A DNA stretch of 64,000 nucleotides, taken from positions 1,378,819 to 1,442,818 of the forward strand of contig NW_018408783.1 of the NCBI RefSeq assembly GCF_002113885.1. Direction: 5' to 3'. Shown here piece after piece: positions 24,501 through 57,994 of this stretch. Both the position numbers and the translations under genes were made by a program. This DNA is from Mizuhopecten yessoensis (lineage: Eukaryota). A model generated the notes under the pieces. That model ran no database searches. It saw only the letters and a program-made list of their open reading frames with translations, and was not told where the DNA came from. Each line of letters begins with the position of its first letter. Within the stretch, counting starts at the first letter, position 1.

Positions 24501-26953
24501 ATTACTCTGTTAAATCTATCATATATAAAGCGGAATGGTTAAGAGCCTTCAGACCGAAGACCGTTTTAGATGTAAACAGCTGACATTTCGATTTTGCGTT
24601 ACTGGGTTAAAGCTAGTTCCAAAAAAAGGCAGACGTAATTTTACAAGATGTTTCAAGTATTTTGCTGAAACACACAACCACAAATCGTTGTCGATGCGAT
24701 CCAGTATCCGTCTCAGGTAAATAGAATATTCAGTAAAATACTGACATATAAAACTAAAAAGTGATTCCCTGATATATACTCTGATAAGACTGTGTATTTA
24801 TTGTGACGAGATCATCACCATCTGCTGTCATCTCGTCCTCATACAGTCCATAGTGGTGAGTCTATAGGTGAGTAATAAACTGCTTTTTATTTTATTATAT
24901 TTTATATTCAGTAGATTTTAAGACAGCATGCATTTTTAAAAAGTTTTCACGATCTGACGAAACATCATTTAAAACTAATAACGTAAGGTAGATAATTTTC
25001 TCTCATTTCCCTGTGTGTAAAATAGAGCTGTCCAGGGTAAGAAAAAGGAAAACGTGACGTGATGTTATAATGGCTCAACAATAACGAGACGTCACGACGT
25101 GATGAAATTAAAACATTTTACAATATATTTACCGTACAAATTAGAACGATAAGATTAACTTTTCAGTACAAACAGAGGAAATATAGGGTATGCTTAATCT
25201 GGCTGACTGATTCGTTTTCGTTCAGGGGAAAATTGATATTTTCAAAATGGTAGTCAGTCCAAACGCATTTTCAGTTTTTTTGGCTTTTTAGTGTAGTTGG
25301 AATGAGAGAAAAAAAAAAAATCTCATGCCCAACGGTGTAAAATCGGTAAATTCCACCCTCGGGATTTTTCAAATTTGGCAAAACCCTCGGCAAAGCCTCG
25401 GGTTTGACCAGATTTGAAAACACCATCTGTGGAAGTTCCCTGTCATACACCCGTGGGAGTGTAGTAACGTGTGCTTAAAAAAACTGAAGATCGTTTCGGC
25501 GTAAAATGCTCATGTAAAGATAAAATGTTTTATTAAATTGTTGATATTTTGTTATATATGGATTGAACGTTTTTGTTTTCAATTTTCATGCCGGTATGAA
25601 CACAAATCAGTTACAAACATATTGCGTGAAGCCTGCTAGGGTTTCATGTTTGATATGGATATAACCGATTTGCGTTCATACCGGTATGAAAATTAAAACA
25701 ATGCCGTTCAATGTATATATTTAAAAAAAAATCTATAGAAAATATTGTTCCCTTTTATTTATTTATTCTTAAATCATTTATTTATTTACTGCGTTTCGTT
25801 TATGCGTCGTGCTTTAAACGACATTGGCGCAACAGCCCTATTAAACTAAATTGGGGCCAATAATTAACCGTAGTCATTTAAGTGTTTGACACAGGGGCAT
25901 TCTCCATGTTACCAGAAGCGAAGCGACAAGACTCTCACTGAATAAGATTAATCTATAGCGTCATAAGTAAACCACGTGTCACGTAACGAGAGTTTGTGCT
26001 TTCAAACTCAAATGAAATGCATTTCTACTGGTAATGTTCATATAGAGGGTTGCAGCGCAAATGCATATACAAATATATAATGTCCAGATTGAGGTGTGCA
26101 CATTTTCTCCCATGCTTCGCATTCCCGATAAACATGTCTTACTGGACTCTTAAGACGACTTAGGAACAAAGCTTCCCGTGTCTGTTACTACAACGCTTGA
26201 TAGAATACTGATATGTGCCCAATTCAAACATCGAGTCGGTCAGTTTTAGTTCAGTTTGGTTTTGTTTGTTTAATTGAATTTAGAGTCATATTAACAGCTA
26301 GGGTCAATTAAGTGAAGCGCTTCCATGTGTGAAATGTATGCGGTGTAATGGGGGTATGTTGCTGGTGTATTTATCTCCTTGTAATAGTGTGGATTGAAGG
26401 TTAATCTATAGCGTCATAAGTAAACCACGTGTCACGTCACGAGAGTTTTTGCTTTCAAACTCAAATGAAATGCATTTCTACTGGAAATGTTCATATAAAG
26501 GGTTGCAGCGCAAATGCAAATACAGATATATAATGTCCAGATTGAGGTGTGCACATTTGCTCCCATGCTTCGCATTCCCGATATACATGTCTTACTGGAC
26601 TCTTAGGACGACTTCCCTCCACACTTTTGAAAACTTTCCATTGCGTTAACTTTGTATGTAGCAGAACTAGCGCATCGTCATGCGCTCTTGGTGATGAACC
26701 GAAGCGTTGGGTTCACCATTGCAACACTTCTCAATCACTTCTTTTTAAAGCAGACAGATGAATCTCAACTCTTGGGCTAAGATAAACACATGGTAAAACA
26801 TCACGTTTTGCTTGAAACATTCTTACCCGTGTTTCTGATTACTTTTTCTACATCATAAACGCTCGATATATTCTATAACATTGTACATGCAATGTGAAAC
26901 CGGCTTGTGCTAATGAGATATGGTTTCCTTAAACAGTGTCACACAACGGGGAA

Positions 26954-29109
26954 ATGGCGAAAAACATAGAGGATTACAAAGTCAACGGATGTGATTGCGA
27001 ATCAGTTCCATTTAATGAAAGTGCTAACGAGGATGGAAAAGAGGAATGCCAGACGAAGGCCCCTATCAAAGAATATCGATCATTTCTACACGAGATTCTT
27101 CATAACGATGCCACTAGATTCAAGACCTTGCTGAGTGTATGCGCCGCTTCAGGTTTCTGCATACTGGTTTGTTATATTTTCTTTGTTTGTATGGTTGAAT
27201 TATATTAAAGATGATGATCTCATGTAGTGATTACAATTTCCCGTTTCGTATTCTGGTCAACACTGGCCCATATCTTTTCTAGTTTTCCTTTGGGCAACAG
27301 CAGATATTCTTAAATAAGTATATTTCATGATAGCCGTAACAGATTGAATTGCAGCTACAGTAGGTTTAGTGATATACATCTTTATGAATGTGTTTGATTC
27401 ATATTCTACGAAACTGAGTTTGATACACAAATAAAACATGTTTTTAAATGACAACGTCTATATATTGCCAGGGATGGACAAAAGGCCAGTTCGGACCTGC
27501 ATTCTTAGATATTCTGCTCATCTGTAGCACAAGCCTTGAAGAAGGATCTTTGTTCATGACGTCGTATTTTATAGGAAGGGTGATGGGTTCTATTCTAGGA
27601 GGAGCTATTTATTCCAGACTAAACAGATACCTTATTCTTGTAGTCGCCATGACTACCAACAGTCTCATGTTTGCCGTCATACCATGGTGTACAGTATATG
27701 AAATGATGATTGCTGCGCATGTTCTACATGGTATTTCCGGTGGAGTGATGTCTGTTTGTAAGTTACATTATCCTGGTTTATTGTACATTTGCTTTAAACA
27801 AAAATTAAAAAGGGAGCAGTCTCTTGTTTCTCTATTTATTCACATATACATAGTATTATCATCTCTAATGCATTATTGAAGAACAGTGTGAATTTAAGCA
27901 AATATACCCAATTGTTAAATATATTTAAGGATATTTTCTTTTCATGTTGATTACAATATAATTTTACTGTAATCTAAATTACTGACCATTGAAATACTGT
28001 ACGTCAAGGTTTCATCAGTATCGTTGATGCATGTATTTTTTATGTACAAAAAAATGTTCATTTAATATGTATCTAAATAGGTTATTTATTCATATCAATG
28101 GAACACTTTATGTATCATTTCAGCTTTAATATCGATAGCAGCGTCAATCTGGGGAACTTCGGCGAGGGGTAGGGTGTATATGAACATCTTCTACGCTGCT
28201 TATGCTATCTTTGGATTCCTCTCGCCCATTGTGACGTCACCGTTCTTGATTCCAACAACGACAGATGTCACGATATACAATGCATCTCTGAACGTATCTA
28301 ACGAAATGTTCGATGACGTCAATGGAAACGGCTCTTACATCCAATCTGTTCCGAAGTTAAATGCGACTCATACAGAATCACCCGAATCCAGACTTTATAT
28401 AGCTTTTTCAATTTCAGCTGGATTTGCATTTTTGGTCACAATTCCATTTGTTGTATTATTTTTCAAATCACCACAACAATCAGAGAATAAAGTCAGGATC
28501 GACGAGTTACGTTTCATTGGCGATCTTCCAATATTGATAAAGATACTTCAATTTGTAAATGTTGGAATATTTTCAGCTGTGTTCGTTGCAATGAATTATT
28601 CATTTAGCGGCTTTCTGACAGTGTTTTGTGTTCAACATTTGTAATGGACAAAGACAGCCGGTTCCATGTTAACATCCGTGGCGTTTTTTGCTTTACTTTC
28701 CGGTAGGATCTTTGGAGCGGTACTGACAAACTTCCTCAAACCAGTCCCTATGCTATTGCTATCCATCATATCGTGTACCGTAGGATTTGTTGGACTTTCA
28801 GTAAGCGCCGTTTTTCTGGCTGATGTAGGAATATGGATATCTGTATGTGTTATAGGAACACCTTTGGGTGTTGTTTGGCCAAGTTTTCTGAGTTGGATCA
28901 ACGAGAATTTAATTCCCCTTCGAGGTAAAGTGACTGCATACCTAATGATAACTGCCTTTGCTGGGGCGCTCCTGAGTCCGATGTTGTTCGGATATATGAT
29001 GGAAGAGGTATCGCCAATATGGTTCTGTTTTTTAAGCTTAGGGAAGGCTATAGTTACTATCATCAACGTGACATTGTTTTCTCTGTATACGAGGTTCTTT
29101 CACAAATGA
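26954..29109 (+). pseudogene. MFS transporter (MFSD4/NaGLT1-like), copy B, single nonsense mutation
   Basis: Exons 26954-27166, 27472-27757, 28124-29109 with intact splice sites. CAA>TAA at 28642-28644 (QHL*WTK vs QHLQWTK in A and C). Confidence 0.88.
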
Positions 29110-31069
29110 AATAAAAAGTAGAACAGTAAACATGTAGACACATGAACATTTTAAAAGAAAAATAGGCAAACATGAGACAGGGAGGTACTTTAAATGGGTA
29201 AAACAAATGCCCTCATGCATCTTTAGAAGTGTTTAATCCAATTACGACATCACTGCGAGACATCTATTCGAACCATTACCTGTCAGAATAAAGCTCATGC
29301 GCCAAATGTATGAGGATTGCTTCGATGATTATTTAACCATAATAGCTTTTTTTTTGGTTATTACTGACTATAACTACATGCAGTATATCAAAGCTGCCTG
29401 TGTCTGTTGATAAATGGATTGATAGGTTTCTGATTTACAATATATTTTCCTTGGGGTAGATATATGTAATGAAATATATACATGACAATCTTTTCTGTTG
29501 CTACGGTGCTTGATAGAATACTGATATGTACCCCATTCAGACATCGGGTCGGTCAGTTTGGTTCAGTTCAGTTTTGTTTGATGAATTGAGCTTAGAGTCA
29601 TATCAACAGCTATGGTCAATTAAGTGAAGCACTTCCATGTGTGAAATGTATGCGGTGTAATGGGGGCATGTTACTGGTGTATATGTGAATGCCGATTTAA
29701 GAGTACTACCTTGTAAAAATACCATGCCTCAGATACGTATCACAAGCGTCAAAATAGTCATATTCTACTAACAACGAGTACATTAGTCAATATCGCTTTC
29801 AATATAAAGCTTACTTCAATTAATCCAATTAACAGAACCAATCACCACCCTTTCTTGGCCAAGTGCAGGGTTTTTAAGAAAGGCGTTAGGGATAAAACAG
29901 GTAATAGATAGAAAAGGACATATAAAAAAAACTTTGAGATTCGCAAACCAGTTTTATTATGGCCTCTGCTGTGTCACCAACGAGAAGGTTCAATTGCGAA
30001 TACATAATACTACAAGGGGGTTACTTTATAAATCGTCTTTTACGAATCATTCAGAGAATAAAACATGTTCGGTTTTTGCTTTGCTTTCCGGTAAGATCTT
30101 TGGAGGGGTACTGACAAACTTTCTCAAACCAGTCCCTATGCTAGTCCTATCCTGTCGTGTATCGTAGGATTTGCGAATCATTCGGAGAATAAAACATGTT
30201 CGGTTTTTGCTTTATTTGTGGTTGTTTTTTAAACATTATTTTATAAACCATACTTATTCTATGGTTTATGTTTTTCTCATTTTTTTATCACCTCCTACCA
30301 ATACTTGTTTTCTGTATTTTTATATTCTTCATATGTTTTGTTATAAATATATATATAGAAATCTGCCTATATGTAGACATGGACTTCAAACGAAGAAATG
30401 CAATTTACCAATTTAAATGCAATATCCCATTTACTTTTGTATGTAAATGTCAATAACATAATACGATAACATATTTCTGCATTCTCCGTCAGTATTACTG
30501 AATGGGTAGATATTTAAACTTGCAAAAGTCTTCAAACACAAATTAAAATATCCATTTACTCGTTAAGTAATCATGTATTCACTGATAAATTCACCTGTGA
30601 GTCAAACTTGAATTCATCGAGCAAATTCACTGAGAGACTTTGCTCTATCAAAAGACGTATTCTTCTTTAATTTATTCGTCATTTATTTATGATTAAATCT
30701 GTTATTAAAGCTAAATAATTACTTTTTATGTTATATGAATGCATGTATATCAATTTAACAAACGTCAATGAAAAACTCGCATAAACAAATGTCAAAACAA
30801 TTATTTCCAGTTTGTAAAACTCACTACTGTTACTTGCTGTTCACAGACATTTTGTTGTTGCGAGTACCTTTTTACTTTCTATACTTAAGTAACTGATTTA
30901 TGTTTTCTAACGCCTGTTTTGGGTGCCTGGTGTAGCGTATGTTGGTAGCCTTTTGACGTTTGTCGTAGCCTCCTTCAACCCAATCAGTATAAGCATTCTG
31001 TATATTATTTTGGCAGACTCACACTGCTCACTTTGGTAGCAACGTGAAGCCTTGTTGTTTGCCTCTGTA

Positions 31070-32470
31070 ACTTCTTTTGGTAGCCTCTTAGTCTCTGTAG
31101 ATTCTTTTGATAGCCCCTTAGTCTCTGTAGCTTCTTTTGCTAGCTCCTTAGTCTCTGTAGCTTCTTTTTATAGCCTCTTAGTCTCTGTAGATTCTTTTGA
31201 TAGCCCCTTAGTCACTGTAGATTCTTTTGATAACCACATAGTCTCTGTAGCTTTTTGTGATAGCCTCTTAGTCTCTGTATCTTCTTTTGATAGCCTCTTA
31301 GTCTCTGTAGATTCTTTTGATAGCCCCTTAGTCTCTGTAGCTTCTTTTGATATACTCTTTGATTCTGTAGCTTCTTTGATAGACTCTTATTATCTGTAAC
31401 TTCTTTTGATAGCCTCTTAGTCTCTGTAGCTTCTTTTGGTAGCCACCTTATTCTCTTTAACTTCTTTTGATAGCCTCCTAGTCTCTGTATCTTCTTTTGA
31501 TAACTCCTTACTCTCTGTAGCTTCTTTTGATAGCCTCTTAGTCGCTGTAGCTTCTTTTGATAGCCTCTTAGTCTCTGTAGCTTCTTTTGATAGCCCGTTA
31601 GTCTCTGTAGCTTCTTTTGATATACTCTTAGTCTCTGTATCTTCTTTTGGTAGCCCCTTACCCTCTGTAGCTTCTTTTGATAGCCTCTTAGTCTCTGTAG
31701 CTTCTTTTGATAGCCCCTTAGTCTCTGTATCTTCTTTTGATAGACTCTTAGTCTCTGTATCTTCTTTTGGTAGCCCCTTAGTCTCTGTAGCTTCTTTTGA
31801 TAGCTTCTTAGTCTCTGTATCTTCTTTTGATAGCCCCTTAGTCTCTGTAGCTTCTTTTGGTAGACTCTTAGTCTCTGTATCTTCTTTTGATAGCCCCTTA
31901 GTCTCTGTAGCTTCTTTTGATAGACTCTTAGTCTCTGTAGCTTCTTTTGATAGCCTCTTAGTCTCTGTATCTTCCTTTGGTAGCCCCTTAGTCTCTGTAG
32001 CTTCTTTTGATAGCCTCTTAGTCTCTGTAGCTTCTTTTGATAGCCCCTTAGTCTTTGTAGCTTCTTTTGATAGACTCTTAGTCTCTGTAGCTTCTTTTGA
32101 TAGCCTCTTAGTCTCTGTAGCTTCTTTTGATAGCCCCTTAGTCTCTGTAGCTTCTTTTGATAGACTCTTAGTCTCTGTAGCTTCTTTTGATAGCCTCTTA
32201 GTCTCTGTATCTTCTTTTGATAGCCCCTTAGTCTCTGTAGCTTCTTTTGATAGCCTCTTAGTCTCTGTAGCTTCTTTTGATAGCCCCTTAGTCTCTGTAG
32301 CTTCTTTTGATAGACTCTTAGTCTCTGTAGCTTCTTTTGATAGCCCCTTAGTCTCTGTAGCTTCTTTTGATATACTCTTTGATTCTTTAGCTTCTTTTGA
32401 TAGCCACCTTATTATCTTTAACTTCTTTTGATAGCCCCCTTAATCTCTGTTGCTTCTGTTGATAGCCTCT
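31070..32470. repeat. Homogeneous 30-bp minisatellite (TAGCC(T/C)CTTAGTCTCTGTAGCTTCTTTTGA)
   Basis: Strict 30-nt phase over most of 31441-32400; paralog of 16853-18700. Confidence 0.96.
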
Positions 32471-34054: not shown

Positions 34055-35197
34055 TACTAGCGGAAAAAAGAAACTGTGCATGCCTAATATGTGTTATAAA
34101 AATAAATGTTTATCACGTAGAACAACAAGGTTTTCAGGGACAATTTATTTGTTATTTATTAACAGTTGCATTTCATTTTCCACGTTATGGAATCAATAAG
34201 TTCCGCTCAGGAGTGACGTAAACACAGCAGGGGTCAATACTGAGTTCACAAAATTAATACCTCGTATGTCCACCGTTCGCCTGAATGCAAGCCTGGCAAC
34301 GTCGACGCCTTTAGCCTATCAAACGGTTCAAGAATGCTTGTGGGATGGCATTCCAGATCTGTTCCAACGCTGCAGCCAAATCAGCCAACGTCACCGGTTG
34401 ATTAGGTAAGCCCGTCATCTGCGATGCGATGCCGCCCCAAATCATAACGCTGCCTCCGCCGAAAGAACGTCGTTGTACCACACAGTTGTCACTAAAACGT
34501 TCTCTTACGCGACGATACACTCTGGAATGGCCGTCACTACTATCCAGGTGGACTCGCGACTCGTTCGTAAACAAAATGTCTGCCCAATCCCGTCGAGTAA
34601 ATCGCAGATGCCTTCTGCACCAGCCCAGACGTGATGCACGATGACGTGGCAGAAGAACTGGGCGGATTGTAGAACGTGGCGGACGGATAGCTGGTTCACG
34701 CAATCGGTTCCGTACAGTTCTCGGACTTATTGGTATTAACACAAGGATTGCCCGTGTAGTCAAAACTTACCGTTTGGAAGCGATTTCTCAAATTGACAAG
34801 CCGAATATGGTTGTCCTATTGACGTGACGTTACACGTGGACGTCCCGCACGAGGTCGACCGCCGACGTGGCCAAACTTTTTATGTCGTCTCCACAAATGC
34901 CGGATTGTGTTGCGATGGACATGAAAACGTGAACGGCTTGGCACATACCAGCTTGAAGCATTCCAATAATGCGGAGGCGGTAATTTTATTGAGCCTTGGC
35001 ATAGCATTAATCACAAATTAAAATGTTATAATGCTATTTTTACTGAGAGCAAACTGCGCGAGAAAAACCGTCAATGACACACGGATAGTGTGTATGTGTC
35101 ATACTCGGTCATGTGTGTTAATTTTCATGTATATACAATTGGTACTACATGTTCTATAACAATTCTCCGCAAAGCACAGTTTTTTTTCCCGCTAGTA
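34055..35197 (-). mobile_element. Internally deleted Tc1/mariner element with TIRs
   Basis: TIRs TACTAGCGGAAAAAAGAAACTGTGC / GCACAGTTTTTTTTCCCGCTAGTA with TA at both ends. The transposase is frameshifted and jumps from WGGI to the C-terminus, lacking the D34E region. Confidence 0.88.
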
Positions 35198-39303: not shown

Positions 39304-39479
39304 TGTAATGCGGATTTACCTCCTCCGGAAATCGGGGTCCGGTCCCCGGATTTGATGTTAGACGCGGAAGCAGGTTATCCTGTGTTCGTTGAGTTTTACC
39401 GCCATTAAAAGGTTGCACTGAAAACTCGGACGATCTTTGTGTTGTTATTGAAGAACACAGCCAGCTATCCGGCATAACA
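39304..39479 (+). repeat. 5' LTR (176 bp)
   Basis: TGTAATGCGG...GGCATAACA, imperfect terminal inverted repeat, internal ATTAAA (candidate polyA signal). Confidence 0.97.
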
Positions 39480-39481
39480 AG

Positions 39482-39499
39482 TGGTGTCAGAAGTGGGAT
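39482..39499 (+). promoter_or_regulatory. Primer-binding site complementary to the 3' end of tRNA-Leu
   Basis: TGGTGTCAGAAGTGGGAT, 2 nt after the LTR, is the reverse complement of ...ATCCCACTTCTGACACCA, the 3' end of metazoan tRNA-Leu(CAA/CAG). Confidence 0.9.
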
Positions 39500-39756
39500 T
39501 TTGCTTATACGCCCTGCAGGGAGTCCAAAACCCGTTTCTTTTTGTGTAATGTATTGCAATTCGTACCTCAAAGTGGACAGAGGTCTGCTACAGGTAATCG
39601 CGCTGCATTTTGTGTTGTGGGTTGTTACTCGTCATTTAAATGATTATTTTGTAATTTGATTACTATAACTCATTTATAACTTTCACAAAGTAAGAGCACA
39701 ATAACTAATTTACTTGGTTTGGGTAATTTGCTGTTTTGTGTGCCTATATTTAGCCT

Positions 39757-40650
39757 TTGGTCTTGTACTTTCGTTTTACATGTATTTTCGTATTGGTGTT
39801 CACTGCGAACACTGGAATTGCTTCCAAACGAATCGTTCACTGCGAACGGTCAAACATTATCTTTCAGAGGTCGGAGAAGGATCTCGTAGACTACCTTAAA
39901 TCACACAACGTGACAATACCACCTCACGAGGCTGATTTGACCCCCCTGCTAGTATCCGACAGCAAAGGAAAGCGCCTTGCAGTGGTACACAGGGGCAGTA
40001 ATCCAAAACTTCCGATACAGTTCTCATGTAAAGGTGGTGCAAACTCATCAACCCTAGTATCCCTACTAAAAGAACAAATTCCCATCCTCAAGCAGAAATT
40101 TGGTAAACCTGTTTATGTTTATTTCTGGGCTGGTACATGCGACATAACCTCAAAGCAAGGCTGTTATATAAACATTTCTGGTACCTGTGTTAACACTATA
40201 CACAAAATTATCAACTGCTACAAAAGAGCGAGGGACTACACAATAAAACAGGGGTGCAAAATTCAATTTATTGGAGTACCTGTTTATTCGGTTAGCCTTT
40301 ACAATGATATCCAAGGTCACCATAATCCGAGCAAGTTTCTAGAAACAGATGCTGAAGTTGCCAGCCAGGTACACTTCTTGAACTCTCAAATTGAACTTCT
40401 CAACACAGAACTTGGTACCACAACACTTAAATTCAATGCTGATCTTCGTGATTGTCGAAAAAAGGGAAAAGAGCGATATTTCATAGAATTATTGGAGGAC
40501 GGTCTCCACCCTGGGGAACTCTTGGCGAGGAAGTGGTTTAGGCGACTTGAATTAAATATTGTGAAAACTTGTTTTGTGGACCAGGACATTTTGGAAGTCC
40601 ACGTCGACCAACAGGAACTGTTACAGTTAGCATTTGAACAAAATGTGTGA
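39757..40650 (+). CDS. SGNH/GDSL hydrolase (esterase-like) accessory ORF of the Gypsy element; probably translated from a spliced mRNA (39549-39593 + 39868-40650, 275 aa)
   Basis: Stop-free 297-codon frame with blocks in SGNH order: LLVSDS (block I, Ser at 39961-39963), CKGG (II), WAGTCD (III, GxND-like), EDGLHP (V, DxxH at 40498-40509). The frame has no ATG. Confidence 0.82.
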   Translation: MVLYFRFTCIFVLVFTANTGIASKRIVHCERSNIIFQRSEKDLVDYLKSHNVTIPPHEADLTPLLVSDSKGKRLAVVHRGSNPKLPIQFSCKGGANSSTLVSLLKEQIPILKQKFGKPVYVYFWAGTCDITSKQGCYINISGTCVNTIHKIINCYKRARDYTIKQGCKIQFIGVPVYSVSLYNDIQGHHNPSKFLETDAEVASQVHFLNSQIELLNTELGTTTLKFNADLRDCRKKGKERYFIELLEDGLHPGELLARKWFRRLELNIVKTCFVDQDILEVHVDQQELLQLAFEQNV

Positions 40651-43600
40651 TAAAGAACAAGAAGTCACACCAGGGGAAGGAGAGTCTTCAGTTGACACTG
40701 CGTCAGCTGCGGCATATGATATGCTTCAATTCGTAATGAAAAGTTTTGATGAGCAGCGTGATACACAAATGAAGATGTTTCGGCAAACTATGGTGGAGTT
40801 TGAAGACGAAAAGAAACGAAGCTTCGAGGCACAAAGTGAAATGATGAAGTCCTTCATGCAAGAGACACGTCATGATATTCAAAATGCCATAGGACATCAA
40901 GCACCGCTTGCACAGAGTACATTTTCATCTATGGGTCCACAACAGGAATTTGGAAGGTCGACAGACAGAGGATCGTTTGGTGGTTTTGACGAAGAACTCC
41001 GGGTGATCCAGGATAGAGAACGCTCATATTCAAGTCCAAACTTAAATGGACAGAACTCTGCACTATCCAGTACCCCCTCATTGGAAAGACAGGATATGGG
41101 ACGTATGCTGAACAGACATCAAGGAAAGGGTCCTCAAACAAAACTTCCAGTGTTTGAGGGAAAGGAGGATATAGAGGTTTTTATTGTTCCCTTTGAACGG
41201 TTAGCAGAGCGTTATAACTGGACAGACAATGAGAAAGTGGACAGACTCTACGAATGTCTAAAAGGAAGGGCCATGTGGTACATCTGCTCCTTACCAAGGG
41301 AGATGAGAAGAGATTACAGGAATCTAAAGGATAGTCTGATCAAGCGGTTCGGACGAAGAGACCCACCCACAACAGCGAGATCAAAATTACACGAAGTAAG
41401 GCAACGCAGCCTAAGTAATGACGAATTTGGGGAAGAGGTTTGGCGCCTAGTTACCCTTGCTTATCCTAATGTAGATCTCGACTTGCAAGATCAATTGGCT
41501 GCAGAGGCATTCCTCAAGGGGTACAAGAACCCCAAGGTATCTTATGATGTGTTGAACAAGAAACCAAAAACTATCAATGAGGCTATTGAAATGGTTACTT
41601 CACAAGAACATAACTTCAAAGCCACCATCGGTAGGGAGAAAGAGATACGAGACAAGGCTCGGCGCGTTTCATGGGCTGATGGGGCTGGTGTAAAAAATGT
41701 CTCCGATGACGAAGAAGCGTTGAATACACAGCGTGTTCAACTGCCAAACACTGCCTTAGAGTCGGACAACCTCAGTAAATTAGATGTTCGGATGAAACAG
41801 CTTGAGGATCTTGTTCGGAATAGCTCGCTAGAGTGTCGCGCAAGATTCGACCAGTTAGGGAACGAACGCCAAAGTGGGTTTAGCAAGGAAGGAAAGGAAT
41901 GTTACAGATGTGGTGGTAAGGGACACTTCCAAAGAGATTGCAGCTCTAGGAGATCAAGATCGCCCACACCACCGAACAGTCCCCGTTCTCGCTCACCACA
42001 GCATGATGTTAAGATCACCCGGACCAATAGGACAGAGAAAAGCATTATCGTCCCAGTAACGGTCAATGGAACAACAACTGAAGCGGTTATTGATACTGGG
42101 GCCGACGCCACAGTCATCTCTGAGAAATGGGCAAATGAAATAAATTTGCTGTATGCTAAGCCAAAGAAAGAAATTCGTCTAATGACAGCTGAGGATGGTG
42201 CAGAGATGACAGGATTAGGTGTAGTCACTGCGACTCTCCAAATTGGGGAAGAGGTGAGGGAATTACCAGTTGTGATAGCTCCTATCAGAGACAACATACT
42301 GGTGGGCATTGATCTACTCCAATCTGTACAGGCCATTATCCATACTGGAGAAAAGAACCTGGAAGTCAACGGAAAAGTAATCCCAGGACACTCTCAGTTG
42401 AACAGATCTGGGACTGCTATTGCCAGGAGTATAGTTAGAGTACATGCAGATGTTGTGGTGCCACCAGGAAGTGAGAAAATAATCATCGGAAGATTGGAGA
42501 CACCATCAGACACTTCTCAAGCAATACTGGAGGCATTCAATCATCAAAGCGGAATGCGAGTTGGGTCATGTCTTGTCTCTATGAATCAAACTATTCCTGT
42601 GAGAGTTCTCAACCTGAAGGATAGCGAGATTAAACTCACAAATGGCACATTTCTAGGAAAAGTTGAGGAAGCTGACCTAGCTTGGGACCCAAATATGAGC
42701 AGGGAGCCTTCCGTAAACACCAGTGTCGAGCCAGAACATTTACAAGAGGCCCCTGGGACAAACGGAGAGGTTCCGTTGCATGTACAGGATATTTTTGAAG
42801 AGTCCTCAAAAGGACTGTCATCAAATCAAAAAGAGGATCTCTGTATGCTGCTGAATGACTTTCCTGATATATTTGCTAAGGATGACTACGACCTAGGCAG
42901 ATTCAGCGGAGTCAGACATAAGATTGACACAGGTGAAAACAAACCTATACGTCAACCCGCAAGAAGGACACCATTGGGTTTTCAAGCTGAGGAGGACGCC
43001 CATCTACAAAAACTTCTTGACACTGGTGTTGTCATTCCATCTAGTTCTGAATGGGCATCACCGGTAGTACTTGTTCGCAAGAAAGATGGTGGTGTGCGTT
43101 GGTGCATAGACTATCGAAAGGTGAATGAGGTCAGTGTAAAAGATGCTTACCCACTTCCAAAAATTGAAGAGTGCCTTGATACGCTTAGTGGTGCGACTCT
43201 ATTTTCCACCGTAGACTTAATGAGTGGCTACCACCAAATTGAAGTTGATGAGATGGACAGATCAAAGACCGCCTTTGTCACCAAACAGGGGCTCTTTGAG
43301 TACACCAGAATGCCTTTTGGCTTATCCAACTCTCCCTCAACTTTCCAGCGTGCAATGGAGCTCGTACTTAGAGGGTTTCAGTGGGTCATACTTCTTATTT
43401 ATCTGGACGATGTGATAGTGGCATCCAGGTCTTTTGAAGAACATATGCAACATCTGCGTCAGGTTTTCTCCCGGATCCGTGAACACGGTCTGAAGCTGAA
43501 AGCCAAGAAGTGCCGTTTGTTTCGTGAGGAAGTCCTCTTCCTGGGACACATTATTAACGGTGATGGAATCTCCACCAATCCAAAGTTGGTAGATGACGTC

Positions 43601-46006
43601 CTGAATTGGCCTGTGCCAAGCAACTGTAGGGAGCTTCAGTCTTTTCTAGGACTTACCAACTACTACAGACGGTTCGTTCAAAATTATGCAGAGATCGCTC
43701 TGCCACTGCATGACCTCACACGGAAGGAGGTAAAATTTGTATGGGAAGACCGTCAGTGTGAGGCATTCGAGGCCCTGAAGAAGGCAATTACCACTGCTCC
43801 GATATTGTCATACCCGTTGGAGAATTGCAAATTTGTCATAGATACGGATGCTTCTAACAGGAGTATAGGCGCCGTTCTTTCGCAAGTCCAAGATGGGGAG
43901 GAGAAAGTTGTTGCATATGCAAGTAGAAGACTGACCCCTGCACAGGAGAAATATTGTGTGACACGACGCGAACTTCTTGCAGTTGTTGCTTTCTGCCAGC
44001 ATTTCAAACATTATCTTCTTGGCCGGAGGTTCTTATTACGCACAGACCATAGCAGTTTGTCATGGCTTTTCCGATTCAAGTCACCACAGGGACAGCTGGC
44101 GAGATGGCTAGAGGAGGTCAGTCAATACTCTTTTGACATCGAACACCGTGCTGGGAAGCTGCATGTGAACGCTGATGCCATGTCACGGATTCCGGATCAC
44201 GATTCGTGCCCTTGCTACTTCGCGGGTGCCACCGTTGAAACTCTACCCTGTGGAGGATGTATGTACTGTGCAAAACTACAGACTGCGTGGGAAAGATTCG
44301 AGGAGGATGTTGACGATATTGTGCCTATAGCTGTTCGTTCGGCGGAGGTAACTGCTGTCGAAAAACACTCTGAGACCGGAGAGGACTCTAATACGAAGGA
44401 CGATATTCCTCAATGTAACTGGCTACAGACCAAAAGTCCGATGGAACTTCACGAAGAACAGATGCAAGATGAGGATCTAAAACAACTGTATTCATGTGTG
44501 GCCAACAGCGAGACAGTTCCTCTGGGTGAGGCGCAAGCAAGAAGTCCTGCTCTGCGGAAGTATCTACTAACCCTTCAGCAGTTCAAACTGATACACGATG
44601 TTCTCTACTACCAGTGGGAGGCAAATGGACAGGAGTCACTGCGACTCCTGGTTCCATTCCAGATGAGAAAAGAGATCATGCAGGCATGTCATGAAGCTGT
44701 TTACTCCGGTCATCAAGGGGAGAAGAGAACTCTGGAACGAGTGAAGAAGGACTTTCACTGGCACAACATGTCGATGGATGTGAGCATATTTGTTCGGAAA
44801 TGTCATGTATGTGCCGCTGAAAAGAAGAGTAGTAGAACTATGAGAGCACCTCTTCAGACCTACATCTGCGGAGCGCCAATGGACAGGATACAATTGGATG
44901 TCGTGGGGCCTTTTCCTATTAGTGATGCTGGGAACAAATACATACTTGTCATCATCGACCAGTTCACGAAGTGGGTCGAGGCTTACCCAATCACACAACA
45001 GGACAGTAACACGACAGCAAAAAAACTGGTCCTGGAGTTCATCTCTAGATTTGGCGTACCCCTGGAGATCCACACGGATCAAGGACGAAACTTCCAAAGC
45101 GCCCTGTTCAAGGAAGTATGCCGGTTACTCGGAATCGCACAAACCAGGACTACGCCCTATCACCCTTCATCTAATGGTCAGGTTGAGCGGTTTAACCGCA
45201 CGCTGTTGCAGATGATCAGGTGTTATCTAGATCATGGCCAGGCGCATTGGGATGAGAACATTCCCCTTCTTCTGTCTGCTTATCGAAGTACGCCACACCC
45301 TGCGACAGGATTTACACCAAACCTGTTGATGCTGGGTAGGGAGGTCCATTCTCCTCCCGAGCTGATCTACATGGATCCGGATATTTCGCGTTCCTCTGAT
45401 GACGCACCCACCTACCTCGACCGGATGTTAGAGGGTATGCACATTACAGAGGAATTAGCTAGGAAAACATTGAGGGCTTCAAAGGTACATCAGAAAAAAG
45501 TATATGATCTACGGGCTAGGGGAAGAGAGTACCACGTCGGGGATCTTGTATACGTGAAGAACCAATCACGATCTGTTGGACAATCTCCGAAACTCCAATC
45601 TGTTTGGAATGGTCCTTTTGTGATCACCAAGAAATTTGGTCCGGTCGTGTATGAGGTCCGTGGCCGCAAGAAGGCTTCAGTTCTTCACCATGACCGGCTA
45701 AAACAATATTTGTCTGAGGTCATCCCGGCCTGGGTTACCAAGATAAAGCATGATCTTGGTACCTCCTCTCTCCCAACGATTGCTGAGGAAGACCATCTTC
45801 CAACCATGGATAAGAAGTTCGGGACAGAGGAAAACCACCACGAGTCGCAGAACAGCCAACAATCGCTGAAAGCCAGTTTACCAGAGGAAGAGCCAAAGAC
45901 ACCTGTGCCAACTGGGATGTGTTCACAGCGAACCATCTCAGATGAACCATCCCGGTCCTCGCGTTACGGCCGGGCATATAAGCAGCCTACCAAGCTTGAC
46001 CTTTAG
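40643..46006 (+). CDS. Gag-Pol polyprotein (1787 aa, single uninterrupted frame)
   Basis: Capsid-like LPVFEG..F...FE...W; CCHC knuckle CYRCGGKGHFQRDC; protease AVIDTGA; RT (SPVVLV.KK, MPFGL, YLDD); RNase H (DTDAS...ELLA...TDH); integrase HHCC + D,D,E (LDVVGP, TDQGRNF, GQVERFN); GPF motif. No chromodomain or env. Confidence 0.97.
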   Translation: MCDKEQEVTPGEGESSVDTASAAAYDMLQFVMKSFDEQRDTQMKMFRQTMVEFEDEKKRSFEAQSEMMKSFMQETRHDIQNAIGHQAPLAQSTFSSMGPQQEFGRSTDRGSFGGFDEELRVIQDRERSYSSPNLNGQNSALSSTPSLERQDMGRMLNRHQGKGPQTKLPVFEGKEDIEVFIVPFERLAERYNWTDNEKVDRLYECLKGRAMWYICSLPREMRRDYRNLKDSLIKRFGRRDPPTTARSKLHEVRQRSLSNDEFGEEVWRLVTLAYPNVDLDLQDQLAAEAFLKGYKNPKVSYDVLNKKPKTINEAIEMVTSQEHNFKATIGREKEIRDKARRVSWADGAGVKNVSDDEEALNTQRVQLPNTALESDNLSKLDVRMKQLEDLVRNSSLECRARFDQLGNERQSGFSKEGKECYRCGGKGHFQRDCSSRRSRSPTPPNSPRSRSPQHDVKITRTNRTEKSIIVPVTVNGTTTEAVIDTGADATVISEKWANEINLLYAKPKKEIRLMTAEDGAEMTGLGVVTATLQIGEEVRELPVVIAPIRDNILVGIDLLQSVQAIIHTGEKNLEVNGKVIPGHSQLNRSGTAIARSIVRVHADVVVPPGSEKIIIGRLETPSDTSQAILEAFNHQSGMRVGSCLVSMNQTIPVRVLNLKDSEIKLTNGTFLGKVEEADLAWDPNMSREPSVNTSVEPEHLQEAPGTNGEVPLHVQDIFEESSKGLSSNQKEDLCMLLNDFPDIFAKDDYDLGRFSGVRHKIDTGENKPIRQPARRTPLGFQAEEDAHLQKLLDTGVVIPSSSEWASPVVLVRKKDGGVRWCIDYRKVNEVSVKDAYPLPKIEECLDTLSGATLFSTVDLMSGYHQIEVDEMDRSKTAFVTKQGLFEYTRMPFGLSNSPSTFQRAMELVLRGFQWVILLIYLDDVIVASRSFEEHMQHLRQVFSRIREHGLKLKAKKCRLFREEVLFLGHIINGDGISTNPKLVDDVLNWPVPSNCRELQSFLGLTNYYRRFVQNYAEIALPLHDLTRKEVKFVWEDRQCEAFEALKKAITTAPILSYPLENCKFVIDTDASNRSIGAVLSQVQDGEEKVVAYASRRLTPAQEKYCVTRRELLAVVAFCQHFKHYLLGRRFLLRTDHSSLSWLFRFKSPQGQLARWLEEVSQYSFDIEHRAGKLHVNADAMSRIPDHDSCPCYFAGATVETLPCGGCMYCAKLQTAWERFEEDVDDIVPIAVRSAEVTAVEKHSETGEDSNTKDDIPQCNWLQTKSPMELHEEQMQDEDLKQLYSCVANSETVPLGEAQARSPALRKYLLTLQQFKLIHDVLYYQWEANGQESLRLLVPFQMRKEIMQACHEAVYSGHQGEKRTLERVKKDFHWHNMSMDVSIFVRKCHVCAAEKKSSRTMRAPLQTYICGAPMDRIQLDVVGPFPISDAGNKYILVIIDQFTKWVEAYPITQQDSNTTAKKLVLEFISRFGVPLEIHTDQGRNFQSALFKEVCRLLGIAQTRTTPYHPSSNGQVERFNRTLLQMIRCYLDHGQAHWDENIPLLLSAYRSTPHPATGFTPNLLMLGREVHSPPELIYMDPDISRSSDDAPTYLDRMLEGMHITEELARKTLRASKVHQKKVYDLRARGREYHVGDLVYVKNQSRSVGQSPKLQSVWNGPFVITKKFGPVVYEVRGRKKASVLHHDRLKQYLSEVIPAWVTKIKHDLGTSSLPTIAEEDHLPTMDKKFGTEENHHESQNSQQSLKASLPEEEPKTPVPTGMCSQRTISDEPSRSSRYGRAYKQPTKLDL

Positions 46007-46024
46007 CAGGAGCTAAAGGAGCCT

Positions 46025-46036
46025 GGAAGGGGGTGG
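46025..46036 (+). promoter_or_regulatory. Polypurine tract
   Basis: GGAAGGGGGTGG immediately 5' of the 3' LTR. Confidence 0.88.
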
Positions 46037-46212
46037 TGTAATGCGGATTTACCTCCTCCGGAAATCGGGGTCCGGTCCCCGGATTTGATGTTAGACGCGG
46101 AAGCAGGTTATCCGGTGTTCGTTGAGTTTTACCGCCATTAAAAGGTTGCACTGAAAACTCGGACGATCTTTGTGTTGTTATTGAAGAACACAGCCAGCCA
46201 TCCGGCATAACA
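46037..46212 (+). repeat. 3' LTR (176 bp)
   Basis: Identical to the 5' LTR except for two substitutions (TCCTGTG/TCCGGTG and GCTATCC/GCCATCC). Confidence 0.97.
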
Positions 46213-53010: not shown

Positions 53011-54384
53011 TTTAGGCCAAAGACCGATTTAGATGTAAACAGCTGACATTTCGATTTTGCGTTACTGGATTAAAGCGCGTTACAAAAAAAAGGCAGACGT
53101 AATTTAACAGGATGTTTCAAGTAACTAGCTCAAAAACACGACCACAACTCTATCCTTCTCAGTTAGATACTGACTATTGGGTGAAATCTATCTGATTTTA
53201 TTACATAACAAACTAAAGGATGCCGCCCTAATATATACTCTGATAAGACTGTGTATGTAATGAAACGTTATCGTCCCTATCTGCTGTCTACTCGTCCACA
53301 CACAGTCCGTAGTGGTAAGTCTATAGGTGAGTAATAAACTACTTTTTATTTTACTACATTTTAGATTCAGTACATTTTTATACATCATGACTGTTTGAAT
53401 ATTCATAAAGATCTGACAAAATATCATTTAAAACTAATATCGTAAGGTAGATAATTTTCTCTTATTTCCCTGTGTATATGATAGAGCTGTCCATGGTAAG
53501 AAAATGTTATAGGACATTTCTTTCTCTCATTTCCCTGTGTGTAAGATAGAGCTGTCCATGGTAAGAAAGGGGCGTACGAAATTATTATCTTACACCCCAT
53601 TTCACGTGACTTGACGTCATCATGGCTCAACAATGACGTGACGTCACGAATTTGGAACTATCCGATGCCGCAATGTTGACGTGATGAAATTAAAACCTTT
53701 TACTATATATTTACCGTACACGTTATAAAGATGTGATTAATTTATTGTGCAAACATTGTTTGCAAATATGGGATATGCTTATTCTGGCTGGCTGATTCGT
53801 TTTCGTCTAAAAAGCTCAGGGGGAAATTGATATTTTCAAAATGGTAGCCAGTCCAAACACATTTTCATGGTTTCTTGGATTATTCTGGTAGTTGGAATGA
53901 GAGAAAAATAATCTCTCATGACCAAGGGTGTACTAGCGTGTGCTTAAAAATTAAAGATCGTTTTGGCGTAATATGTACCTGTAGAGATAAATTGTTTAAT
54001 TGAATTGTTGATAGTTTGTTATAAATATATAAAGTCGAGATTGAGGTGTGCGCAAGTTTTCTCCCACGCTTCAAATTTCCGATATACCCGACATAGGGAA
54101 TACAACTCCCTCCATCCTTTTTCGAAAACCTCTCCATTGTGTAAACTTTGTATGCAGTGGAACTAGCGCATCGTCATGCGCTTTTGGTGATGAACGGCAA
54201 CAATAATCAATCACTTCTTTTTAAAGCATGGTAAAACATCTTGCCATGCTTGAAACATTCTTACCCGTGTTTCAGATTGCTATTTCTACATCATAAACGC
54301 TCGATATATTCTATTACATGCAATTTGAAACCGGCTTTTGCTAATGAAATATTGTTTCCTTAAACAGTGTCACACAACGAGGAA

Positions 54385-56491
54385 ATGGCGAAAAGCAAAG
54401 ACGATTACAAAGTCAACGGATCTGAGTGCGAGTCAGTTCCATTTAATGAAAGTACTAATGAGGATGGAAAAGAAAAATGCCAGACGAAGGCCCCTATCAC
54501 AGAATATCGATCATTTCTACATGAGATTCTTAATAACGATGCCACTAGATTCAAGACCTTGCTGAGTGTATGCGCCGCTTCAGGTTTCTGCATACTGGTT
54601 TGTTATATTTTCTTTGTTTGTATGGTTGTATTATATTAAAGATGATGATTTCATGTAGTGATTACAATTTCCCGTTTCGTATTCTGGTCAACACTAGCCC
54701 ATATCTTTTCGAGTTTTCCTTTGGGCAACAGCAGATATTCTTAAATAAGTATATTTCATGATAGCCGTACCAGATTGAATGTCAGCTACGGTAGGTTTAG
54801 TGAGATACATCTTTATGAGTGTGTTTGATTCATATTCTACGAAACTGAGTTTTTAAATGACAACGTCTTTATATTTCCAGGGATGGACAAAAGGCCAGTT
54901 CGGACCTGCATTCTTAGATATTCTGCTCATCGGTGGCACAAGCCTTGAAGAAGGATCTATGTTCATGACGTCATATTTTATAGGAAGGGTGCTGGGTTCT
55001 ATTCTTGGAGGAGCTATTTATTCCAGACTTAACAGATACCTTATTCTTGTAGTCGCCATGACCACTAATAGTGTCATGTTTGCCGTCATACCATGGTGTA
55101 CAGTATATGAACTCATGATTGCTGCGCATGTTCTACATGGTATTTCCGGTGGAGTGATGTCTGTTTGTAAGTTACATTATCCTGGTTTTATTGTACATTT
55201 GCTTTAATTGTTTCTCTATTTATTTATTCACGTATACAGTATCATCTCTAATGCCTTTCTGCAGAACAGTGTGAATTTAAGCAAATATATCCAAATGTAA
55301 TATATATATTAAGGATATTTTCTTTTCATGTTGATTACAATATAATTTTACCGTAATCTGAATTACTGACCATTGAAATACTGTACGTCAAGGTTTCATC
55401 AGTATCGTTGATGCATGTATTTTTATGTACAGAAAAAGTTTATTTAATATGTATTTAAATAGGTTATTTATTCATGTCAATGGAACACTTTATGTATCAT
55501 TTCAGCTTTAATATCGATAGCAGCGTCAATCTGGGGAACTTCGGCGAGGGGTAGGGTGTATATGAACATCTTCTACGCTGCTTTTGCTATCTCTGGATTC
55601 CTCTCGCCGATTGTGACGTCACCGTTCTTGATTCCAACAACGACAGATGTCACTAGATACAATACATCTTGGAATATATCTAACAATATAGTCGATGAAG
55701 TCAATGGAAACGGCTCAAACATCCAATCTGTTCCGCAGTTAAATGCATTACATACAGAATCACCCAAATCCAGACTTTATATAGGTTTTTCAATTTCAGC
55801 TGGATTTGCATTCTTGGTCACAATTCCATTTGTTGTGATATTATTCAAATCGCCACAACAATCAGAAAATAAAGTCAGGATCGACGAGTTACATTTCATT
55901 GGCGATCTTCCAATATTTATAAAAATACTTCAATTTGTAAATGTTGGAATATTTTCAGCTGTGTTCGTTGCAATGGATTTTTCATTTAGCGGCTTTCTGA
56001 CAGTGTTTTGTGTTCAACATTTGCAATGGACAAAGACAGCCGGTTCCATGTTAACATCCGTGGCATTTTTTGCTTTGCTTTTCGGTAGGATCTTTGGAGC
56101 GGTACTGACAAACTTCCTCAAACCAGTCCCTATGCTATTGCTTTCCATCATATCGTGTACCGTAGGATTTGTTGGACTTTCAGTTAGCGCCATTTTTCTG
56201 GCTGATGTAGGAATATGGATATCTGTATGTGTTATAGGAACACCTTTGGGTGTTGTTTGGCCAAGTTTTCTGAGTTGGATCAACGATAATTTAATTCCAC
56301 TTCGAGGTAAAGTGACTGCATACCTAATGATAACTGCCTTTGTTGGGGCGCTCCTGAGTCCGATGTTGTTCGGATATATGATGGAAGAGGTATCGCCAAT
56401 ATGGTTCTGTTTTTTAAGCTTAGGGAAGGCTATAGTTACTATCATCAACGTGACATTGTTTTCTCTGTATACGAGGTTCTTGCACAAATGA
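54385..56491 (+). CDS. MFS transporter, MFSD4/NaGLT1 (sodium-dependent glucose transporter 1)-like, copy C, intact, 494 aa
   Basis: Exons 54385-54597, 54881-55166 and 55506-56491 splice GT-AG in frame without stops. About 12 hydrophobic segments; GQFGPAFLDI and GSILGGAIYSRLNR (motif-A-like). An acceptor at 54366-54367 implies an upstream exon. Family assignment from motif recognition; substrate unproven. Confidence 0.85.
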
Positions 56492-57994
56492 AATAAAAAG
56501 TAGAACAGTAAACATGTAGACAGATGAACATTTTAAAAGAAAAATAGGCAAACATGAGACAGAGAGGTACTTTAAATGGGTAAAACAAATGCCCTCATAC
56601 ATCTTTAGAAGTATTTAATCAAGTTACGACATCACTGCGAAACATCTATTCGAACCATTACCTGTCAGAATAAAGCTCATGCGCCAATTGTATGAGGATT
56701 GCTTCGATGATTATTTAACCATCGTAGCTTATTTTTGTTATTACTGACTATAACTACATGCAGTATAACAAAGCTGCCTGTGTCTGTTGATAAATGGATT
56801 GATAGGTTTCTGATTTACAATTTATTTTCCTTGGGGTAGATATATGTAATGAAATGTTTTGTTTGCTGAATTGAGTTTAGAGTCATATTAACAGCTAGTG
56901 TCAATTAAGTGAAGCCCTTCCATGTGTGAAATGTATGCGGTGTAATGGGGGCATGTTGCTGGTGTATATATCTCCTTGTAATAGCAAGGATTGAATGCTG
57001 GTGTATATGTGAATGCCGATTTAAGAGTGCTACCCCGTTAAAATACCATGCCTCAGGTACGTAGCACAAGCGTAAAAATAGTCGTATTGTACTAACAACG
57101 AGTACATCAGTCAATATCGCTATCAATGTAAAGCTAGCTTCAAGCGCAGACCAGTAAACTAATTCCAAAGTATTTGGTTTGGTTTGGTTTGGCCAATTAA
57201 CAGGACCCATAATCTTCCTCTTTTGGCTCAATGCAGGGTTTTCAAAAAAGCCGTTAGGAAAAATACCAGGTAATAGATGCATGTAGAAAAGAAAATTTAA
57301 AAAAAATAAACGTTACGATTGGTACAACAGATTCCGTGTGGTCTTTTCTCTGTCACCGACGAGAGGGAACAATTACAAATACTCATTACTACAGGGGGCT
57401 ACCATATTAATCTCCTCTTACGAATAATGCAGAGAATAAAAACATTTGGTCTGTTTATGTGTTTATATTTATATATACATTATAAACCATTATTACCTAA
57501 TGGTTTATGTTTTCCTTAGCACGTTCTACCAAACTCAGACATGTTTTCTGTATTTCAATATTTTATATTTTTTGGTTATAAATATATATAGAAGTCTGCC
57601 TATATGTAGGCATAGACTGCAAATGAAGAAATGACATCATCAGCATCCCATTTACTTTTATATGTAAATGTCAATAACATTATACGATAACATAATACTG
57701 AATTATCCATCAGTAATACTGAGTTTCTAAATGCTAAAACTAGCAAAAGTCTTAAAACACAAATTAAAATATCCATTTACTCGTTGACTAATCATTTATT
57801 CACCGATAAATTCACCTGTTTTTCAAACTTGAAGTCATCGAGCATATTCACCGCGAGAACTTAGTCATTTATTTAAACTTAAAGCTGCTAATAAAGCTAA
57901 AGCATTACTTTTTCATGTTATTAAATCTTCGTGTATGAAACCAGAACCATAGAAAAGCAGAGAGACAGTGGCGAAGGACCAAATTAACCGTAAA

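What the first reader, a model, noticed from the sequence alone, without database searches (positions are those of the whole stretch)
39549..39868. The Met-less esterase ORF appears to be initiated by splicing from the first AUG after the LTR
Seen: the 297-codon frame has no ATG and is closed upstream by TAG (39751-39753). The first ATG after the 5' LTR (39549) opens MYCNSYLKVDRGLLQ, ending at CAG|GTAATC (donor 39594). An acceptor TTATCTTTCAG| ends at 39867 and joins in phase 0 to RSEKDLVDYL..., giving a 275-aa protein and removing a T-rich 274-nt intron. Inference: a subgenomic spliced mRNA makes the esterase while unspliced RNA is the genome, a retrovirus-like arrangement at the 5' end of the element.
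Basis: partly seen in the sequence, partly recalled or inferred. Interest (0 to 1): 0.75.

Follow-up and report, generated by a model that had tools for sequence, protein, structure and literature searches.

The report
Retrotransposon esterase gets start by splicing
A scallop-type jumping gene carries an extra esterase-fold gene that, unlike most of its relatives, has no start codon, and it likely gets one by splicing in a short upstream exon, which would let one small intron decide whether the element's RNA is translated or packaged.

Summary
Observation confirmed base for base. The element is an intact Ty3/gypsy LTR retrotransposon (39304-46212) with an SGNH/GDSL-fold ORF ahead of a single gag-pol ORF. 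The splice reading gains independent support. The acceptor (39867) falls exactly where 75 of 85 relatives have their initiator Met. The window and nine close relatives lack that Met and form one clade (100/98), so this is not a broken copy. The one other Met-less family with DNA also has an in-phase pyrimidine-CAG there, against 1 of 15 Met-type loci. Two RefSeq models use the same junction. No junction read was seen: the one certain RNA run gave 31 reads and none over the acceptor, and two runs only guessed to be RNA are unspliced. 'Subgenomic' is doubtful: the intron removes only 4% of the element, and the gag AUG overlaps the esterase stop, so the spliced RNA is more likely a bicistronic mRNA for esterase and Gag-Pol. 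Splicing about 0.72 likely. New variant of a known kind; interest 0.5.

The parts
39304..39479 (+). 5' LTR, 176 bp, TG...CA; 2 mismatches to the 3' LTR; 4-bp target-site duplication ATAT; ATTAAA at 39404
39482..39499 (+). Primer binding site (TGG start, 2 nt after the LTR); lies upstream of the donor, so it stays in spliced RNA. Match to tRNA-Leu is recalled, not tested
39549..39593 (+). Predicted coding part of exon 1: first AUG after the LTR, 15 codons. Unspliced, it runs on as a 36-codon uORF
   Evidence: identical to residues 1-15 of RefSeq model P0001
39594..39867 (+). Predicted 274-nt GT-AG intron, T-rich, stops in all three frames, two out-of-frame AUGs (39640, 39780), 112-nt AG-free zone before the acceptor
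   Evidence: sister copies carry a 1-nt insertion after 39614
39794..39851 (+). Two copies of a conserved short stem-loop motif (TTC-ACWGC-GAA core) inside the intron; candidate packaging or Gag-binding signal (inferred). Each also contains a yUnAy branch-point-like pentamer (consensus recalled)
39868..40650 (+). Exon 2: SGNH/GDSL-fold hydrolase ORF, 260 codons, no in-frame ATG; S32, G57, D211, H214 conserved, block III Asn replaced by Cys
40643..46006 (+). Single gag-pol ORF (1787 aa from ATG: gag, zinc knuckle, protease, RT, RNase H, integrase in gypsy order); its ATG lies 5 nt before the first base of the esterase stop
45917..45937 (+). Third copy of the stem-loop motif (loop variant) at the 3' end of pol, outside the intron
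46017..46036 (+). Polypurine tract
46037..46212 (+). 3' LTR

Best explanation
This Ty3/gypsy retrotransposon has an SGNH-fold esterase ORF without a start codon ahead of gag-pol, and it likely starts that protein by splicing a 15-codon exon (AUG 39549, donor 39594) to the acceptor at 39867. Shown: the anatomy, the fold, the acceptor at the family's start position, and the loss of the Met as a clade-wide trait. Inferred: an ancestor of the clade replaced the esterase's own AUG by a 3' splice site, so the protein can be made only from spliced RNA. The spliced RNA is nearly full length and likely bicistronic: ribosomes ending the esterase would reinitiate at the overlapping gag AUG. Unspliced RNA, whose first AUG opens only a 36-codon uORF and which keeps two stem-loops in the intron, would be the packaged genome.
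For: 75 of 85 aligned relatives have Met in the column of the first residue after the acceptor. The window and 9 relatives lacking it form one clade, 100/98 support, among 34 rows. L005 (Met-less clade, 43% identical) has an 11/12 pyrimidine tract plus CAG in phase 0, one codon before the same Arg, where the codon is not AUG-like. P0007 reads Phe-Gln just before that Arg, and the Pinctada model P0006 is 'partial' and begins at it. Only 1 of 15 distinct Met-type loci has a YAG within 6 nt of its ATG. RefSeq models XP_021349768.1 and XP_021350770.1 (the latter twice) join the same two exons. Sister copies show an indel inside the intron and none in the ORF. The gag AUG is within 17 nt of the esterase stop in 5 of 5 close elements with both ORFs intact (window -5, L001 +4, L005 +4, L007 -8, L006 -17). 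Nine AUGs lie between the LTR and the gag AUG. No intron-less DNA form is listed in X18 at about 650-fold depth.
Against: No junction read. X23 (RNA) laid only 31 reads, with zero depth over 39610-40299. X5 gives one 6498-nt contig running unspliced over both sites, and X6 contigs cross both sites unspliced; both runs are only guessed to be RNA. Both RefSeq models also contain implausible extra introns (one into an LTR), so they may be ab initio. No donor or exon 1 could be seen in any other Met-less element (the L005 contig starts 229 nt upstream). Met-type relatives have 586-933-nt leaders with 3-11 upstream AUGs and no clear acceptor at the ATG, so this lineage may initiate without ordinary scanning anyway. 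Stop-start coupling is looser in others (L011 +16, L020 +24, L024 +41, L029 +139, L022 +162, L014 +164), and a TURBS-like core (recalled) was found in only 1 of 5. For six of the ten Met-less rows only gene-caller starts further downstream are known, without DNA.
Confidence: 0.62

Rival explanations
1. Same splice, but classic subgenomic logic: the spliced RNA makes only the esterase (ending early or never reinitiating), and Gag-Pol is made from unspliced RNA by an IRES or shunt, or from a second splice to near 40630.
For: All splice evidence above. The TAG ending at 40630 would be a phase-0 acceptor into the gag-pol frame. Coupled splicing and early termination is known in plant Ty1/copia (PMC5580714, abstract).
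Against: No A(A/T)TAAA in 40600-41200. The 40630 site is not among the ten best-scoring acceptors printed nor among the six YAG sites with 8 or more pyrimidines. Tight stop-start spacing in 5 of 5 close elements.
Confidence: 0.15
2. No splicing: the esterase starts at a near-cognate codon on unspliced RNA (TTG 39757 or one of 8 others before 39868, or AGG 39868 itself), perhaps helped by the hairpins or an IRES.
For: Ten near-cognate codons lie in frame from 39757 to 39868, and L005 has two. X5 and X6 contigs are unspliced. Met-type relatives cope with many upstream AUGs.
Against: The 38 codons before 39868 are not conserved. L005 has a non-cognate codon at the family start. It does not explain the acceptor in two families, the AG-free zone or the phase-0 donor. 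The out-of-frame AUG 39780 overlaps the ORF start.
Confidence: 0.13
3. The acceptor is real but its partner is a different 5' exon (another donor in the LTR or leader, or a trans-spliced leader).
For: The donor matches only 7/9; phase-0 donors of 6/9 exist at 39690 and 39723. No exon 1 was seen in relatives.
Against: The 39549 uORF stops at 39657, before those donors. All three RefSeq junctions use 39594. An AUG-bearing spliced leader is not known to me in bivalves (recalled).
Confidence: 0.07
4. The esterase ORF is a silent relic whose start codon decayed.
For: No expression evidence here.
Against: Open frames with catalytic residues are kept across a 10-member clade at 44-52% identity. The element is young (2 LTR mismatches in 176 bp) and multi-copy. 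Both sister-copy changes listed in the ORF are third-position.
Confidence: 0.03

Closest known systems
Bdelloid rotifer Vesta LTR retrotransposons with GDSL/SGNH ORF3 (PMC5408684; passages and section 3.3 read)
   Same: LTR retrotransposon with a separate SGNH esterase ORF; the paper says ORF3s are typically expressed from spliced messages
   Different: There it is ORF3 (the env-like slot after pol, recalled); here it lies between the PBS and gag, with Cys in place of the block III Asn. Kinship of the two esterases was not tested
SGNH esterase in ORF1 of non-LTR elements CR1/L2/RTEX, ZfL2-1 (PMC3905857; passages read)
   Same: SGNH fold with Ser-Asp-His triad, upstream of the RT gene; a membrane or lipid role is proposed there
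   Different: Non-LTR elements, where it is part of ORF1p; here a stand-alone ORF in an LTR element that has its own gag
Retroviral and gypsy env expression through a major 5' splice donor (PMC10309623 introduction; passages read)
   Same: Donor just downstream of the PBS, accessory ORF dependent on splicing, unspliced RNA as genome (inferred here)
   Different: The intron here removes 274 nt, not gag-pol; the accessory ORF is 5' of gag; Gag-Pol would come from the spliced RNA
C. elegans Cer1 CERV (PMC10309623; passages read)
   Same: LTR retrotransposon accessory protein from a spliced mRNA with TTTCAG acceptors
   Different: CERV shares exons with gag and ends in an ORF after pol; it is an export factor, not an esterase
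BARE1 and Arabidopsis EVD/Ty1-copia spliced gag RNAs (PMC3735527, PMC5580714; abstracts read)
   Same: Splicing divides RNA pools between translation and packaging
   Different: Copia elements whose spliced RNA is a short Gag-only message; no upstream ORF, no start codon supplied by an exon
Drosophila 412/mdg1 sORF1/sORF2 upstream of gag (10.1101/2025.03.14.642691; passages read)
   Same: Gypsy-type elements with accessory ORFs 5' of gag
   Different: Those transcripts showed no splicing; the ORFs are short and unrelated
Termination-reinitiation in caliciviruses and SART1 (PMC10275272; passages read)
   Same: Downstream AUG within 20 nt of the upstream stop, out of frame
   Different: No TURBS core found in the window; the mechanism is untested here

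Membership tests
Ty3/gypsy LTR retrotransposon | Paired LTRs TG...CA, TSD, PBS, PPT | tested here: met
Ty3/gypsy LTR retrotransposon | gag, then PR-RT-RH-IN order | tested here: met
   Pfam
Ty3/gypsy LTR retrotransposon | Placement in a named clade by RT phylogeny | not tested
   No named reference RTs were at hand; the three best RT matches in G001 are esterase-bearing elements
SGNH/GDSL hydrolase | SGNH alpha/beta fold | tested here: met
   Model pLDDT 95.9; top Foldseek hits are GDSL lipases/esterases, E 1e-7, TMq 0.55-0.57; weak Lipase_GDSL in 9 of 86 members; atlas score 0.94
SGNH/GDSL hydrolase | Catalytic Ser (block I), Gly (II), Asp-x-x-His (V) | tested here: met
   S32 and H214 invariant, G57 and D211 at least 90% in 86 sequences
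SGNH/GDSL hydrolase | Block III oxyanion-hole Asn | tested here: not met
   Gly-Thr-Cys-Asp; Cys91 in at least 90% of 86. Read as a variant; block assignment is by motif, not by superposition
SGNH/GDSL hydrolase | Ester hydrolysis | not testable with these tools
   needs an assay
GT-AG spliceosomal intron | Donor, acceptor, AG-free zone, in-phase join | tested here: met
   (tract modest)
GT-AG spliceosomal intron | Junction seen in RNA | tested here: inconclusive
   31 reads, none over the acceptor; two guessed-RNA runs unspliced
Retrovirus-like subgenomic mRNA | Splice removes gag-pol, or the RNA ends early, so it encodes only the accessory protein | tested here: not met
   The intron is 4% of the element; no polyA hexamer in 40600-41200; RNA ends not seen
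Retrovirus-like subgenomic mRNA | Packaging signal inside the intron | tested here: inconclusive
   Two of three stem-loop copies are intronic; no intron-less DNA form listed
TURBS-type termination-reinitiation | Stop and start within 20 nt, out of frame | tested here: met
   window -5; 5 of 5 close elements, with exceptions further out
TURBS-type termination-reinitiation | 18S-complementary motif upstream of the stop | tested here: not met
   Recalled core absent in the window and in 4 of 5; other reinitiation modes remain open

The most novel reading that the evidence does not exclude
A clade of invertebrate gypsy elements traded the start codon of its first gene for a splice acceptor, making one 274-nt leader intron the master switch. 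Spliced RNA is the only mRNA, for esterase and, by reinitiation, for all Gag-Pol. Unspliced RNA is untranslatable and keeps intronic stem-loops that mark it for packaging. This inverts retroviral logic, in which unspliced RNA is both genome and Gag-Pol message.
Probability: 0.3. Interest if true: 0.72.

Novelty: new variant of a known kind. Interest (0 to 1): 0.5.

Why it matters
How LTR elements divide one transcript between translation and packaging is an open question, with few worked cases (BARE, EVD, Cer1). This element gives a compact, testable case: one intron, one AUG, one stop-start overlap. It also shows a widespread invertebrate gypsy lineage with an SGNH esterase in front of gag, and a datable change in how that gene starts (own AUG to exon-supplied AUG). 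I found no description in ten paper searches, but repeat databases and most subscription journals were not searchable, so the esterase-gag-pol layout may be catalogued already.

Tried and rejected
No whole genome was held, so sister copies were seen only through read laying. No RNA holder listed among 20 holders. Of 23 listed runs, 4 were laid. Pfam gave no SGNH hit on the window protein and the PDB sequence search gave 0 hits; the fold settled it. The viral collection had no relative. The search for longer forms found none among 8000 candidates (weak). 380 genomes of G001's family gave only one more genome with host-type contigs and no new Met-less locus. The upstream part of L005 is not elsewhere in G001. 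L001-L003 are not held as genomes. The whole intron does not fold better than shuffles (z 0.07). Rfam gave 0 matches. The stem-loop's outer four pairs are mostly unpaired (70% of cells paired, 34 of 500 shuffles as high; the -1 slide has higher covariation); only the 4-bp core holds, with one G-C/A-U change in 4 of 15 copies, all from one family. Rejected: a frameshifted copy whose AUG 39780 was once in frame (no indel listed there in three runs); a recent point loss of the ATG (clade-wide). The three joints inside the element are not GT-AG and look like deletions. A third exon for P0001 was not found in the window. Row P0077 lacks Met in the column but has one two residues earlier and lies outside the clade. 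The tree used 34 rows chosen by me: the nearest 31 rows of A2 plus 3 locus proteins. Earlier scan notes held nothing on this element.

Full report
Observation. Every coordinate given is correct: ATG 39549, donor 39594, acceptor ending 39867, TAG 39751-53, a 15-codon first exon in phase 0, 260 codons after the acceptor, and a 274-nt intron with 113 T. The frame 39754-40650 has no ATG. The intron holds stops in all three frames and two out-of-frame ATGs, of which 39780 overlaps the ORF start. The donor is the best match to a recalled consensus in 39304-40700 (7/9). A first ATG reaches such a donor in phase before a stop in 68 of 5000 shuffles, and the 112 AG-free bases before the acceptor are the longest such run in the element (82 of 20000 shuffles). 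These thresholds were set after seeing the data. The pyrimidine tract is only 8/12, and 3 of 61 AGs score higher.

What the element is. It spans 39304-46212: 176-bp LTRs with two mismatches, ATAT duplication, PBS at 39482, PPT, and one gag-pol ORF in gypsy order. A DNA-like run covers it at about 650-fold, with several different flanks, so it is a young multi-copy family. A 99% identical RefSeq protein is labelled Mizuhopecten yessoensis, so the host is probably that scallop. The upstream ORF has no Pfam hit, but its model (pLDDT 95.9) matches GDSL/SGNH hydrolases (E 1e-7). Ser, Gly, Asp and His are conserved in 86 sequences, while the block III Asn is Cys. Activity is untested.

The comparative test. 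The profile finds 991 representatives at E up to 0.001. In an 86-row alignment, 75 of 85 relatives have Met in exactly the column of the first residue after the predicted acceptor. The window and nine relatives that lack it form one clade with 100/98 support in a 34-row tree. The missing AUG is therefore an old, inherited trait of intact ORFs, not damage to this copy. DNA was available for one other Met-less family (L005, with near-copy L003): it has an 11/12 pyrimidine tract and CAG in phase 0, one codon before the same Arg. P0007 reads Phe-Gln there, and the Pinctada model P0006 is partial and begins at that Arg. Only 1 of 15 distinct Met-type loci has a YAG within 6 nt of the ATG. Acceptor present and AUG absent thus go together, on two families with DNA. 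For six Met-less rows only gene-caller starts are known, and these could be ATG, GTG or TTG.

Annotation and sister copies. RefSeq XP_021349768.1 has the window's exon 1 as residues 1-15, followed by 231 residues identical to exon 2. XP_021350770.1 has the same junction twice. Both models also carry odd extra introns, one into an LTR, so I cannot say that RNA backs them. Contigs of three runs show a 1-nt insertion inside the intron, no indel that would bring an ATG into frame, and no listed change at the ATG, donor or acceptor; 59 difference rows were not shown.

RNA evidence, against or empty. The only certain RNA run (19% read) laid 31 reads, with zero depth over 39610-40299 and no joint at the intron. 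X5 has one 6498-nt contig unspliced over both sites, and X6 crosses both unspliced. Both are only guessed to be RNA, and both include hundreds of bases of host flank before an LTR, which fits DNA as well. If they are RNA, splicing is rare in those samples.

How it most likely works. The donor lies downstream of the PBS, so splicing removes 4% of the element and leaves the PBS, gag-pol and PPT; there is no polyA hexamer in 40600-41200. Nine AUGs separate the LTR from the gag AUG, which makes plain scanning to gag unlikely. The gag AUG lies 5 nt before the esterase stop, and within 17 nt in 5 of 5 close elements, the spacing described for termination-reinitiation (PMC10275272, passages). More distant elements are looser (+16, +24, +41, +139, +162, +164), and no TURBS core was found in the window. 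I infer a bicistronic spliced mRNA for esterase and Gag-Pol, and an unspliced RNA that is poorly translated and packaged. No intron-less DNA form is listed in X18, as expected if spliced RNA is not packaged, but also if it is never made. A short motif with a 4-bp stem and ACWGC loop occurs twice in the intron and once at the end of pol, and in three other element families, 17 copies in all, always in the element's sense orientation. Its core shows one compensatory change in one family; the flanks are not convincing. It is a candidate packaging signal, not a shown one. Splicing at this acceptor is about 0.8 likely, this exact junction about 0.72-0.77, and the full bicistronic and packaging model about 0.3.

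Comparison with known systems. SGNH ORFs are known as ORF3 in rotifer LTR elements (PMC5408684; passages and section 3.3) and in non-LTR ORF1 (PMC3905857; passages). Spliced messages are known for env, Cer1 CERV (PMC10309623; passages), BARE and EVD gag (PMC3735527, PMC5580714; abstracts). ORFs upstream of gag in 412/mdg1 are unspliced (10.1101/2025.03.14.642691; passages). PMC8220671 and PMC6431247 (passages) did not describe this layout. Ten searches found no account of an esterase ahead of gag or of this splice. Repeat databases were not searchable and no supplements were read.

Verdict. 'Subgenomic' should be replaced by 'near-full-length, probably bicistronic'. It is a new variant of a known kind, interest 0.5.

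Noticed in passing
window 39794-39851 and 45917-45937; L006, L007, L028: Conserved TTC-ACWGC-GAA stem-loop motif, 17 copies in four element families, always in sense orientation, clustered in the 5' leader and the 3' end of pol; the closing pair is G-C in three families and A-U in L028. No Rfam match.
   Followed up: partly
window 40643-40650; L001, L005, L006, L007: The gag AUG abuts or overlaps the esterase stop, suggesting translational coupling.
   Followed up: partly
L001 4708-5294, L006 6065-6998, L011 824-1501: Met-type relatives have 586-933-nt leaders with 3-11 upstream AUGs and no clear acceptor at the ATG; how they start the esterase is unexplained.
   Followed up: partly
window 45425 to 46021: Three RNA reads join 45425 to the PPT and LTR at a 3-nt microhomology: a transcribed copy lacking about 600 nt of the integrase end, not a GT-AG splice.
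   Followed up: partly
window 39414-39593: The frame of exon 1 is open for at least 45 codons upstream, back into the LTR; RefSeq model P0016 reads through it.
   Followed up: no
G001, G371 (L005-L031): Two bacterial genome bins hold many animal-type retrotransposon contigs (113 and 10 RT matches), evidently host contamination; the esterases are deposited as bacterial proteins.
   Followed up: no
L012, L013, L015-L019, L025-L027: Shorter (about 240 aa) esterases of the same family with no long ORF starting within 200 nt downstream; their element type was not determined. The C-terminal tail with the Asp-x-Gln-Glu motif seems limited to the gag-linked group.
   Followed up: no
window about 11400-14100, 26400-29100, 54300-56500: Three tandem copies (93-97% identical) of a transporter-like gene with many membrane helices; the copy at 28081-29109 has a stop at 28642-44 where the third is open. 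The retrotransposon sits between copies 2 and 3.
   Followed up: no
window 14458-15090 and 34311-34766: Two decayed ORFs on the minus strand resembling Tc1/mariner transposase (recognised by eye, not searched).
   Followed up: no
window 1-2030, 16770-18815, 30940-32440: Tandem arrays with 40-nt and 30/32-nt units; the 30-nt array is open in several frames.
   Followed up: no
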